Origin: Eledone cirrhosa
Taxonomy: Eukaryota
Assembly: GCA_964016885.1 (NCBI GenBank)
Contig: OZ024747.1
Location: forward strand, 12,834,001 to 12,898,000
Direction: 5' to 3'
DNA length: 64,000 nucleotides
Shown here: positions 30,766 to 50,666 of the stretch, piece after piece
How positions within the stretch are numbered: position 1 is the stretch's first letter
Layout: each line of letters starts with the position of its first letter
The notes under the pieces: generated by a model
Told to the model about the DNA's origin: nothing
Databases searched by the model: none
The model's input: the letters and a program-made list of their open reading frames with translations, nothing else
Made by a program: the position numbers and the translations under genes

Positions 30766-31137
30766 AGGCACATAGCTTAGTGGTTAGAGCATTGGCCTTG
30801 CAATCGAAAGGTTGTGAGTTCAATTCTCAGACCGGGTGATGTGTTGTTCCTTGGGCAAGACACTTTATTTCACATTGCTCCAGTTTACTCAGCTGTAGAA
30901 ATGAGATGATAGGGACTGGGGTCCATATCATTCCACTGCAAAGTGGTCGTGGAGGTGCCACGGCAAAAAAGCACCCAGCTCACACTGTAAAGTGGACGTG
31001 TAGGTACCACGGAAAAAAAGCAGCCACCACTCACTGTAAATGAGGAAGGGCATCCATCCAGCTGTAGAAATCAAGCCAGAATCAGTTCCCGTCCCACCCT
31101 TGCAAGCAGGGAAAAGCGAATGTAAAATGATGATGAT
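30764..31137 (+). mobile_element. SINE family B
   Basis: Full-length homolog of 10397-10742. Confidence 0.9.
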
Positions 31138-31522: not shown

Positions 31523-31871
31523 ATCATCATTTCATCATCATTTCATTTTACGTCCACTTTTCCCTGCTTGCAAGGGTGGGACTGGAACTGATTCTGGCTT
31601 GATTTCTACAGCTGGATGCCCTTCCTAACACCAACCTCATTTACAGTGAGTACTGGGTGCGTTTTTTTTGCCGTGGCACCTACACGTCCACTTTACAGTG
31701 GAATGATATGGACCCCAGTCCCTATCATCTCATTTCTACAGCTGAGTAAACTGGAGCAATGTGAAATAAAGTGTCTTGCTCAAGGAAACAACACATCGCC
31801 CGGTCTGAGAATTGAACTCACAACCTTTCGATTGCAAGGCCAATGCTCTAACCACTGAGCCATGTGCCTCC
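31523..31871 (-). mobile_element. SINE family B
   Basis: Reverse-complement full-length copy. Confidence 0.9.
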
Positions 31872-32107: not shown

Positions 32108-32675
32108 CATCATCATCATCATCTTCGTTTAACGTCCATATTCCACGCTTGCATGGGTTTGGACGGGAGTTTTCCCACTTCAGGCAAGAGTGGTTGTCTT
32201 GCTCGCATAGGACTGTCTGGCGGGTTTTCTACGGCTGGATGCCCTTCCTAACACCAGCCACATTTACAGTGTGGAACTGGGAGGTTTTTACCGTGTTACC
32301 TACACGGTCACATTAAAGCGTGGACTGTGTGTTTTTTTGTTGTGACACCTACACGACCTCATTTGTTTCGGGCTGGATGTTGTGGTACCAACATAACTTT
32401 ACATTGAAAGGGGTGGTGTGGATGGGGTGGAGATAGTGGGGTGGGGGTGTATTTTGTTAGAGGTGCCTACTGACTGTAGTAGGTTTCACTTTGCACTTAG
32501 GTAAGGCGGGTCTTCTCTATTACTGTGTAGCGCCAAAGATCTTGGTCCAGTGACATTGTCTTGGAGAGGTGTAAGTGTGTGAGGTCGGAATTTATCAAGT
32601 CGTCCCAGGTTTTTCAGGGTCTGCCTACTCCGTGGCTACCGTTTATTTTTATTGCCCTGCACTTTTTTATACAGC

Positions 32676-43608: not shown

Positions 43609-44759
43609 AGAAAGGAGTAGGCAGAAACTCCATTTTATGTCCCAAATGCAAAGTATGGGTGCATAAAAGATGTAGTGGGATCACAGGTAAGCTAACTAAG
43701 AATATAGATTTTATATGTGGCCGGTGCTCAGGTGCAATAAGTAGCAGCAAGTGCCCACAGAATACTAGCTCATTCCATTGCACAGATGGTTCTATAGAAA
43801 TAGTGGACACCTTCTGTTACCTGGGTGACAAAATCAGCAGTGGTGGAGGGTGCTCCGAAAGTACAGTAGCTAGTCAGAACGGGATGGAAAAAGTTCAGAG
43901 AGCTTATACCACTATTGGCCGCTAATGGGTTCTCTCTAAAAATGAAAGGCAGGCTGTATGATGCCTGCATACGAACAGCAATGTTGCATGGCAGTGAGAC
44001 TTGGGCATTGTGTGCAGAGGATATACACAGACTGGAGAGGAACGAAGCTTGCATGCTCTGCTGGATGTGTAATAGTAATATACGTGAACGGCAAATCATA
44101 AACGAACTAAGGGAGAAATTAGGAATAAGAGGGATCAGATGTTGTCTACTCGAGAGAAGACTATGTTGGTACGGTCACATGATGCGCATGAAAGACGACA
44201 GCTGTATAAAAAAGTGCAGGGCAATATAGACGGTAGCCACGGAGTAGGCAGACCCTGAAAAACCTGGGATGACTTGATAAATTCCGACCTCACACACTTA
44301 CACCTCTCCAAGACAATGTCACTGGACCAAGATCTTTGGCGCTACACAGTAACACAGAAGACTCGCCTTGCCTAAGTACAAAGCGAAACCTACAGTCAGT
44401 AGGCACCTCTAACAAAAATACACCCCACCCCACTATTTCCACCCCATCTACACCACCCCTTTCAATGTAAAGTTATGTTGGTACCACAACATCCAGGCCG
44501 AAACAAATGAGGTCGTGTAGGTGTCACGACAAAAAAACACACAGTTCACGCTGTAATGTGGCCGTGTAGGTAACACGGTAAAAACCTCCCAGTCCACACT
44601 GTAAACATGGTTGGTGTTACGAAGGGCATCCAGCCGTAGAAAACCCGCCAGACAGTCTTATGCGAGCAAGACAACCAAGCTTGCCTCAAGTGGGAAAATT
44701 CCCGTCCAAACCCATGCAAGCATGGAAGATAGACGTTAAACGATGATGATGATGATGAT
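43609..44759 (+). mobile_element. 5'-truncated RTE-clade LINE (RT C-terminal part with a Cys/His zinc finger, long 3' UTR, (GAT)n tail)
   Basis: GVGRNSILCPKCKVWVHKRCSG...FICGRC...VDTFCYLGDKISSGGGC, then a frameshift, then KGRLYDACIRTAMLHGSETW...RRLCWYGHMMR; ends AGACGTTAAAC(GAT)n. Confidence 0.92.
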
Positions 44760-48510: not shown

Positions 48511-48680
48511 ATTAAAACCCCACCCACCCACAAATACACCAAATCCATTTATATAGAACCACTCAGCACATACAAATCAGCAAGAAAGTTCTTCACACAC
48601 ACATTATTTGTGGTACTTCCTTTTTAAGAATCCAGTTGGTTATAAACATTTACCAAGTTAAGACTAAAAAAACGAGCCCT

Positions 48681-48870
48681 ATGGAGCGGATATATCAGAG
48701 AAAGGACGGGAGCACATTTTATTAAATGGATTCTGCTATCGTTTAGATAGAAAACTTAGAAATGGAAAAGAGTCTTGGCGTTGTACTGAAGACAAATGCA
48801 AAGGTCGTATCCATGTTAATGAAAGTTTATGGGAAGATATTACAACGCATTCCCATGTGGCGCAGCCAGC
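48681..48870 (+). pseudogene. FLYWCH zinc-finger N-terminus of a Mutator-like (MULE) transposase
   Basis: ISEKGREHILLNGFCYRLDRKLRNGKESWRCTEDKCKGRIHV...TTHSH from 48692; ATG at 48681 is one base out of frame. Not in the ORF track. Confidence 0.8.
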
Positions 48871-49084
48871 AGTATCAAGGATGAAGCAGATGGTTTATTC
48901 TCATGTGTCTATTAATATTATAGTATTCATTTATTCAGTCATGAAATCTTATAAACTTGTTGTTTTAGTATTAGATAAGTCCTGATATTGACATAAGTAA
49001 TTTCAGATTATCAAATATATTGTGTGTTGTACTTGAAATAATTAATACACTTGTAACTTGGATACTACACTACAACATTGCAAC

Positions 49085-49911: not shown

Positions 49912-49953
<42 letters not shown>

Positions 49954-49958
<5 letters not shown>

Positions 49959-50630
49959 AATTAAGTTAAAAATGTACATCCACATATGTATACTGAAATA
50001 CTAGTATGCATATGAATACACACACGTATACATATGTAGATGTACCGAGTTTTTCACTGGTCACTTTACTGTGAGTGTCCAGCTATTCTGTATGTAAACA
50101 CACAGACAAACCGGTTTTTAGAGTCATACTGGTTTTTGAGGAAACACCTTTCCTCTATTCTCCAGAAAGCCAGACAAGGAATATTGAACTAGTTTCGATG
50201 TTGTTACATCTCATCAGCAATATTTACCTATCTTCCGGCCTTTCTAGAGAATCGTAAAAGCACATATCGTTATATGCTTTTTCTATGAAAATTAGTAGTG
50301 GGCAGACTAATTTGCATAGAGCGTGAGTACTAGTTCAATATTCCTTGTCTGGCTTTCTGGAGAATAGAGGAAAGGTGTTTCCTCAAAAACCAGTATGACT
50401 CTAAAAACCGGTTTGTCTGTGTGTTTACATACAGAATAGCTGGACACTCACAGTAAAGTGACCAGTGAAAAACTCGGTACATCTACATATGTATACGTGT
50501 GTGTATTCATATGCATACTAGTATTTCAGTATACATATGTGGATGTACATTTTTAACTTAATTGTTTAAGCGTCAGTCATACAAAAGTGAGTTACAAACG
50601 AAACGAAATTTAATTTCGTTTCGTTATTTG

Positions 50631-50635
<5 letters not shown>
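49954..50635. mobile_element. Fold-back Penelope-like/retrozyme insert in (TA)n
   Basis: 240-bp inverted arms 49954-50193 and 50329-50568 that read as identical; hammerhead straddles the inner end of the left arm; (TA)n on both sides. Confidence 0.75.
50180..50224 (-). ncRNA. Minimal type I hammerhead ribozyme
   Basis: Minus strand reads AATATTG-CTGATGA-GATGT(AACA)ACATC-GAAA-CTAG-TT|CAATATT: 7-bp stem I, intact core, 5-bp stem II, palindromic ACTAGT stem III, GUU cleavage between 50187 and 50186. Confidence 0.9.

Positions 50636-50666
<31 letters not shown>

What the first reader, a model, noticed from the sequence alone, without database searches (positions are those of the whole stretch)
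49954..50568. Apparently perfect 240-bp inverted repeat hinged on an intact hammerhead
Arms 49954-50193 and 50329-50568 read as exact reverse complements, so the event is very young or homogenised. A canonical CUGAUGA/GAAA hammerhead (minus strand, 50180-50224) overlaps the inner end, and the second arm starts exactly at its ACTAGT palindrome. Any transcript through here forms 240 bp of dsRNA, a potential ADAR or Dicer substrate. On the minus strand, the hairpin would compete with ribozyme folding.
Basis: partly seen in the sequence, partly recalled or inferred. Interest (0 to 1): 0.75.

Follow-up and report, generated by a model that had tools for sequence, protein, structure and literature searches.

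The report
Two-armed retrozyme with Penelope insertion scars
This mirror-image stretch is one ordinary copy of an abundant 466-base repeat with a predicted self-cutting RNA motif, and its back-to-back arms, one short-ended and one long-ended, were likely written by a Penelope-type retrotransposon enzyme from both sides of one DNA break.

Summary
The 240/240 inverted repeat and the hammerhead fold are real, but they are part of a 684-bp insertion (49954-50637) in (TA)n. It belongs to a 466-nt hammerhead tandem-repeat family (non-LTR retrozyme) with about 2,000 long-end junctions in this genome. The arms lie head to head and stop at two fixed sites, a short end and a long end 69 nt further: the Penelope 'tail'. 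In a 134-Mb census, 39 of 40 pairs had one of each, none two long ends. Penelope-like elements here show the same footprint, and at least one insertion is half retrozyme, half Penelope-like element. Each arm holds sequence the other lacks, so this is no fold-back. The hinge at ACTAGT looks like chance (0 of 172 arm ends within 2 nt of the cut; 2-nt microhomology). Perfect arms are common (18 of 48). This copy has one whole ribozyme, predicted blocked in read-through RNA; cleavage, transcription and editing are untested. A circular template is likely, not shown. This scan already noted the same footprint on other repeat families in this genome. New member of a known kind.

The parts
49916..49955 (.). 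(TA)20 target microsatellite, left side
   Evidence: last 2 nt shared with the short end
49954..50330 (-). Short-end arm, 377 nt: unit positions 323-466 then 1-233 (position 1 = first base after the predicted cut); 3' end at 49954
   Evidence: one substitution against the family majority, shared with 68 insertions
50164..50235 (-). Type I hammerhead fold: 7-bp stem I with internal-loop extension, CUGAUGA, 5-bp stem II, GAAA, 1-2-bp stem III with palindromic loop, GUU; predicted cut 50187/50186
   Evidence: covariation; activity untested
50194..50328 (-). 135-nt spacer = unit 325-459, present only in the short-end arm
50329..50330 (.). Head-to-head junction, 2-nt microhomology (AC), unit 323 joined to unit 460
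   Evidence: 24-mer across it occurs once in G000
50329..50637 (+). Long-end arm, 309 nt: unit 460-466 then 1-302; holds only the 3' half of the ribozyme
50477..50548 (+). Long internal hairpin (unit 142-213) ending 15-20 nt before the short end; mirror copy at 49974-50045
   Evidence: circular fold; self-match
50569..50637 (+). 69-nt 'tail' (unit 234-302) between the two fixed ends, present only in the long-end arm
50597..50625 (+). 13-bp tail hairpin, about 10 nt before the long end
   Evidence: 72-nt stretch, z -3.9, 0 of 200 shuffles as good
50635..50664 (.). (TA)15 target microsatellite, right side

Best explanation
This is one insertion of a 466-nt protein-free hammerhead repeat (a non-LTR retrozyme) whose two head-to-head arms were likely written at once by a Penelope-like reverse transcriptase/endonuclease priming both strands of a cut in (TA)n. 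Shown: the family, the TA target, two fixed 3' ends 69-74 nt apart, the one-short-one-long pairing, scattered 5' junctions with little or no microhomology, and the same footprint in autonomous Penelope-like elements of this genome. Inferred: a dimer nicks both strands; one subunit starts cDNA at the short site and the other at the long site of the same template; both copy through the ribozyme cut site, often for more than one unit; the two cDNAs are joined wherever they stop. The inverted repeat is simply the part copied twice. The template is probably an RNA circle made by ribozyme cleavage of tandem transcripts (about 0.55); an uncut multimer is the alternative. A Neptune/Nematis-type family (N2; L208, L216) is a candidate helper (about 0.5). 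This copy is likely a dead end: one whole ribozyme, sense arm 377 of 466 nt.
For: 990 exact copies of a 21-mer of the ribozyme, in 466-nt arrays and dispersed. Exact end+TATA junctions: 2044 long, 370 + 1090 short; reversed-pattern controls 0. Census of listed ends on C1:1-134.5 Mb: 40 head-to-head pairs within 16 kb, 39 short+long, 1 short+short, 0 long+long, 20 expected mixed, p 4e-11; 100 of 180 ends unpaired by exact pattern. Fetched loci: 81 short+long, 3 short+short, 0 long+long, 44 other, of 128 records after dropping 2 duplicates. Three RT+GIY-YIG families end the same way in TA (L202, L203, L208/L216). L217: retrozyme long-end arm joined to 2.4 kb of N2 ending at its short end; L154: retrozyme short end with N2 long end. 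158 of 208 arms cross the cut site, 115 exceed one unit. Arms differ 0.6% from each other against 3.8% to the typical other insertion (n 67). Arrays of 11 and 6 identical units lie 3-4 changes from any outside unit; 11 insertion-unique variants occur in both arms. Ribozyme: 6 of 14 pairs with double changes over 7 rows from two families, 1 of 500 shuffles as high. Fits two adjacent start sites, both-strand extension and a predicted dimer in PMC11167929, and the inverted copy with one-sided tail in PMC8557442 and PMC3846280.
Against: No terminal repeat homologous to the unit was found beside the 50 GIY-YIG places fetched (150 scored of 10,596 candidates); N2 shows no similarity to the unit (best E 0.03, opposite strand) and no hammerhead by my pattern. 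Chimeras are few: 1 clear, 1 complex, 1 ambiguous (L190, long+long) among about 210 insertions viewed, none in the last 80 loci; deletion between neighbouring insertions could mimic them. Arms are no closer to each other than to the nearest other insertion (33 closer, 2 equal, 32 farther of 67), so 'same molecule' is not proven. 14 unique variants sit in several units of one arm only, and large arrays are mixed (19 distinct of 30 units, periods of 2-3), which a single monomer circle explains only with later duplication. 3 short+short insertions break the rule. In PMC11167929 ribozyme cleavage was not needed for insertion and uncut RNA was the main substrate.
Confidence: 0.82

Rival explanations
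1. Same enzyme and footprint, but the template is an uncut linear multimer transcribed from donor arrays (one or two molecules), not a circle; long arrays grow further by unequal exchange.
For: No arm ends at the cut site (0 of 172 within 2 nt), equally expected if the RNA is never cut. Mixed and periodic arrays; variants confined to one arm. GUU triplet in 79 of 92 region-level counts and a weak stem III. Uncut RNA was the main substrate in PMC11167929; 8 of 9 Xenopus dimers did not cleave in 10.64898/2026.07.22.740005.
Against: Insertion-private haplotypes repeated unchanged over 6-11 units and across both arms; conserved, covarying ribozyme; the monomer folds far better as a circle than shuffles (-158 vs -93 +/- 6 kcal/mol, 60 shuffles), though that does not show circularity.
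Confidence: 0.35
2. A local fold-back or self-priming event at the ACTAGT palindrome made the second arm from the first (first reader's hinge; self-priming was proposed for Penelope inversions in PMC3846280).
For: Arm 2 starts at the palindrome; 8 of 86 family junctions overlap by 7 nt or more, mostly at the tail hairpin.
Against: The long arm holds unit 234-302 that the short arm lacks, and the short arm holds 323-459 that the long arm lacks, so neither can be a copy of the other. Overlap here is 2 nt, like 40 of 86 junctions with 1-4 nt. Arm ends at 459-466: 5 of 172, 3.0 expected; inside the ribozyme 14, 18.5 expected.
Confidence: 0.04
3. Assembly or library artefact (fold-back read).
For: Perfect identity of the arms; complex Penelope structures trouble assemblers (PMC8557442).
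Against: Both termini are exact family ends in TA, each arm has its own in-register sequence, and 30 of 48 comparable insertions have arms differing by 1-6 substitutions.
Confidence: 0.04
4. A host-used double-stranded RNA or ribozyme switch at this locus (ADAR or Dicer substrate).
For: Read-through RNA would form a 240-bp duplex that is predicted to block stem I.
Against: The copy equals the family majority and has many equivalents with longer arms (median 447 and 499 nt). The only clear Pfam hit near it is a FLYWCH piece with 20 matches in the genome, likely a decayed DNA transposon.
Confidence: 0.04

Closest known systems
Metazoan non-LTR retrozymes (Cervera and de la Pena 2020, PMC7229834, passages read; Li, Clavereau and Pollet 2026, 10.64898/2026.07.22.740005, parts 1-3 of 5 read)
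   Same: Tandem and dispersed non-coding units with one type I hammerhead each, low GC (unit 36%), strongly self-paired monomer, no LTR, coexisting Penelope-like elements proposed as helpers.
   Different: Unit 466 nt (150-450 bp in PMC7229834; families up to 972 bp in the preprint). No homologous pLTR found here, unlike 21 Xenopus matches. The passages read do not describe two-armed insertions with paired fixed ends ('inverted' occurs 0 times in PMC7229834). RNA, circles and cleavage untested here.
Penelope-like element insertions, Neptune/Nematis and Naiad type (PMC8557442, PMC3846280, passages read)
   Same: Inverted 5'-truncated copy at the head, tail at one end only, (TA)n target, no readable target duplication, microhomology at the 5' joint.
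   Different: No ORF; tail 69-74 nt rather than 30-40; both arms can be multi-unit arrays; Naiads lack hammerheads.
Anolis Poseidon PAc in vitro (Frangieh 2024, PMC11167929, parts 1-2 of 4 read)
   Same: Two adjacent internal start sites bounding the tail, AT-rich target, both strands cut and extended, predicted dimer.
   Different: That work is on an autonomous element and, in the parts read, does not show the two sites used in pairs on opposite strands; here pairing is read from genomic copies.
LINE-1 twin priming (recalled; no paper read)
   Same: 5' inversion from priming on both target strands.
   Different: Twin priming inverts different parts of one RNA without duplicating them and starts at a poly(A) end; here both arms duplicate the same part and start at two fixed internal sites.

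Membership tests
Non-LTR retrozyme | Type I hammerhead in each unit | tested here: met
   267 gap-free copies in 91 of 127 regions, 34 variants, each core base changed in at most 1; Rfam HH9 E 1.8e-7 but below gathering
Non-LTR retrozyme | [quoted passage not shown] | tested here: met
   466-nt period, arrays of 31 units and more
Non-LTR retrozyme | No coding capacity, no LTR, low GC | tested here: met
   GC 167 of 466; no ORF of 70 aa within the element; ends are fixed internal sites, not direct terminal repeats
Non-LTR retrozyme | Two consecutive ribozymes in one copy ('active' definition of Li et al.) | tested here: not met
   The window copy has one whole ribozyme; met by many other copies of the family
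Non-LTR retrozyme | Self-cleavage in vitro | not testable with these tools
   Only fold and covariation
Non-LTR retrozyme | Expressed as linear and circular monomer RNA | not testable with these tools
Penelope-mobilised insertion | Inverted 5'-truncated copy at the head | tested here: met
   86 head-to-head junctions mapped
Penelope-mobilised insertion | Tail between two fixed 3' ends, at one end only | tested here: met
   39 of 40 and 81 of 84
Penelope-mobilised insertion | (TA)n target | tested here: met
   Both flanks here; seen also in loci picked by the ribozyme motif alone
Penelope-mobilised insertion | Autonomous RT + GIY-YIG partner in the genome | tested here: inconclusive
   Several families present with long ORFs; which one acts rests on 1-3 chimeras
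pLTR derivative of a Penelope-like element | Sequence homology to an autonomous element's terminal repeat | tested here: inconclusive
   None beside 50 GIY-YIG places fetched of 10,596 candidates
Autonomous Penelope-like element | RT and GIY-YIG ORF | tested here: not met
   tblastn of 12 such ORFs against the window gave no hit
MITE / DNA transposon | Fixed terminal inverted repeats around a fixed core, fixed length | tested here: not met
   Arm lengths and junctions differ in every copy; many copies are one-armed

The most novel reading that the evidence does not exclude
One Penelope-type enzyme dimer, borrowed from a family unrelated in sequence, primes both strands of a (TA)n break at two fixed sites on a single ribozyme-made RNA circle and rolls round it in both arms, so that each insertion records one RNA molecule, including its A-to-I edits, in the germline genome.
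Probability: 0.25. Interest if true: 0.72.

Novelty: new member of a known kind. Interest (0 to 1): 0.42.

Why it matters
The locus itself is ordinary. The family is useful: the near-strict short+long pairing turns the known one-sided Penelope tail into a countable rule that predicts how the two start sites seen in vitro are used, and the chimeric insertions name a helper to test for the long-proposed retrozyme-Penelope link. It also implies that the genome holds on the order of a thousand long, near-perfect inverted repeats made as a by-product (inference from end counts).

Tried and rejected
DNA-similarity searches of G000 returned nothing, as the tool skips very common words; patterns were used instead. 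No RNA holder was listed among 24 runs; no evidence either way. No listed contig bridged the junction in X1-X4 (2 samples, 1 study; 28 of 260 pieces shown), and none covered the right flank in X1, X4, X5, X6; a hole proves nothing, so presence in reads stays open. miRNA-family Rfam matches are generic hairpin hits far below gathering. Pile-up of 5' ends at the cut site, first suggested by alignment breaks at the unit boundary, vanished on exact mapping. Excess of junctions at unit 201-275 (56 of 172, 27.7 expected) is post hoc and confounded by short arms. In-register sharing or gene conversion between arm tips: not supported. A>G excess among variants carried by all units of an insertion (possible ADAR marks): 13:2 against T>C in the first 125 insertions, but 2:3 in the next 80, and 2:1 in the pre-specified set of 39 labels (two insertions, L293 and L294, were pooled by mistake); pooled 14:5, p 0.04; not replicated, low power. 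L218 (retrozyme next to another Penelope-like fragment) has no TA end and was not counted as a chimera. Stem II probabilities came from a wrong index and are not used. Pfam on 140 of 152 window frames found no convincing host gene (one weak Gpi1 hit), which does not exclude an intronic position. bioRxiv supplements were not available; those of the Li preprint could hold insertion structures.

Full report
Observation. The arms 49954-50193 and 50329-50568 are exact reverse complements. A type I hammerhead fold lies on the minus strand, core 50180-50224, extended to 50164-50235, with the predicted cut after GUU at 50187/50186. The Rfam score (36.5 bits, E 1.8e-7) is below gathering and the bare motif is near chance, so the case for a ribozyme rests on the family: 267 gap-free copies keep the core and swap an A-U pair of stem II for U-A, and seven rows from four subfamilies, the window and a second family show double changes at 6 of 14 pairs (rows are related, so this is no probability). 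Stem III is 1-2 bp with a palindromic loop, the type said to need dimers (PMC4209133, PMC7229834, passages). Cleavage was not tested.

What it belongs to. A 21-mer of the ribozyme occurs 990 times in the 3.0-Gb genome, in arrays of period 466 and dispersed. Numbering the unit from the cut, the window holds 323-466 + 1-233 on the minus strand and 460-466 + 1-302 on the plus strand, head to head between two TA tracts. The insertion is 49954-50637; the inverted repeat is just the part present twice. Each arm carries unit sequence that the other lacks, so both were copied from a template with the whole unit, not from each other. Five clusters at 4% were seen among 123 distinct units. Runs of two other coded organisms hold the unit too, one with 3 differences in 236 nt.

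The two ends. Copies stop at unit 228-233 (short) or 299-302 (long), followed by TA: 370 + 1090 and 2044 exact matches. Using all listed ends on C1:1-134.5 Mb, 40 head-to-head pairs formed, 39 short+long, 1 short+short, none long+long (p 4e-11); 100 of 180 ends had no exact-pattern partner. In 128 fetched records 81 were short+long, 3 short+short, 0 long+long and 44 one-armed, interrupted or cut by the fetch. In 80 further loci, 12 of them chosen from those pairs, I saw no long+long pair and one complex copy with two short ends, L252. This is the inverted head and one-sided tail described for Penelope-like elements (PMC8557442, PMC3846280, passages), and the tail was shown in vitro to lie between two reverse-transcription start sites of an enzyme that cuts and extends both strands (PMC11167929, parts 1-2 of 4).

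The helper. [quoted passage not shown] Three families end short+long in TA. In L217 a long-end retrozyme arm joins 2.4 kb of family N2 that stops at its short end; L154 pairs a retrozyme short end with an N2 long end; L190 is ambiguous. All three involve N2, which shows no similarity to the unit. They are 1-3 cases in about 210, with none in the last 80 loci, and deletion between neighbours could mimic them. No homologous terminal repeat was found.

The hinge and the perfection. Of 86 junctions 40 overlap by 1-4 nt, 14 are blunt, 24 have extra bases and 8 overlap by 7 or more; of 172 arm 5' ends none lies within 2 nt of the cut and 7 within 8 nt (6.3 expected). The window junction is unique. 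Of 48 terminal arm pairs, the window included, 18 have no substitution, and arm tips are no closer than other units: youth and a shared template explain the match.

The template. 158 of 208 arms cross the cut site and 115 exceed one unit, which excludes a linear cut-to-cut monomer. Arrays of identical, insertion-private units and variants shared by both arms favour a circle; mixed and periodic arrays, one-arm variants, and arms no closer than the nearest other insertion leave a multimer open. An A>G excess in template-borne variants did not replicate.

This copy. It has one whole ribozyme and cannot release a monomer between two cuts. In minus-strand read-through RNA the antisense arm is made first and is predicted to abolish stem I (0.84 to 0.00). 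Whether the locus is transcribed is unknown; its nearest coding-like neighbour is a repeated FLYWCH fragment.

Novelty. Retrozymes, their proposed Penelope helpers (PMC7229834, passages; 10.64898/2026.07.22.740005, parts 1-3 of 5) and the Penelope footprint are in print. Four searches listed no paper on two-armed retrozyme insertions with paired ends; the library is incomplete and preprint supplements were closed. Earlier notes of this scan describe the same footprint for families of 308-615 nt in this genome, some calling it an octopus (unchecked), while a look-up by this sequence found none. My reading was fixed before those look-ups. Verdict: new member of a known kind, interest 0.42.

Noticed in passing
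window 48668-48982 +: FLYWCH zinc-finger fragment (Pfam E 2e-8) with 20 matches in the genome at 50-100% identity; likely a decayed Mutator-type DNA transposon (label recalled).
   Followed up: partly
window 30773-30830 + and 31805-31862 -: Two tRNA-like matches just over gathering, likely SINE heads.
   Followed up: no
window 32109-32649 and 44223-44759: Dispersed inverted pair, 89-95% complementary, about 11.6 kb apart.
   Followed up: no
L210:8949-9508, L211:5570-6650: Second hammerhead repeat family, unit about 511 nt, 65-78% like this one in patches, with the same two hairpins before a short and a long end in TA.
   Followed up: partly
L215:31-492, L171, L227, L317: Short two-armed N2 end pieces (short+long in L215), several meeting near a small palindrome: non-coding derivatives of N2.
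   Followed up: partly
L044 (G000:C1:81.87 Mb) and L223: Higher-order periodicity inside arrays: every third unit has a 2-nt deletion in L044; two variants alternate in L223.
   Followed up: partly
L197:4009-6822 -, L210:4544-5974 +: A 938-aa stop-free RT+GIY-YIG frame of a young family (97% between copies), and a distant family about 25% identical to the others.
   Followed up: no
runs X5-X20: Sixteen further coded organisms hold 0.19-0.55 of the element's sampled words; only X5 and X6 were laid. Descent or transfer not examined.
   Followed up: partly
L074, L156, L279: Retrozyme insertions sit in TA tracts directly at the ends or in the 3' parts of Penelope-like elements: nested use of the same targets.
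   Followed up: no
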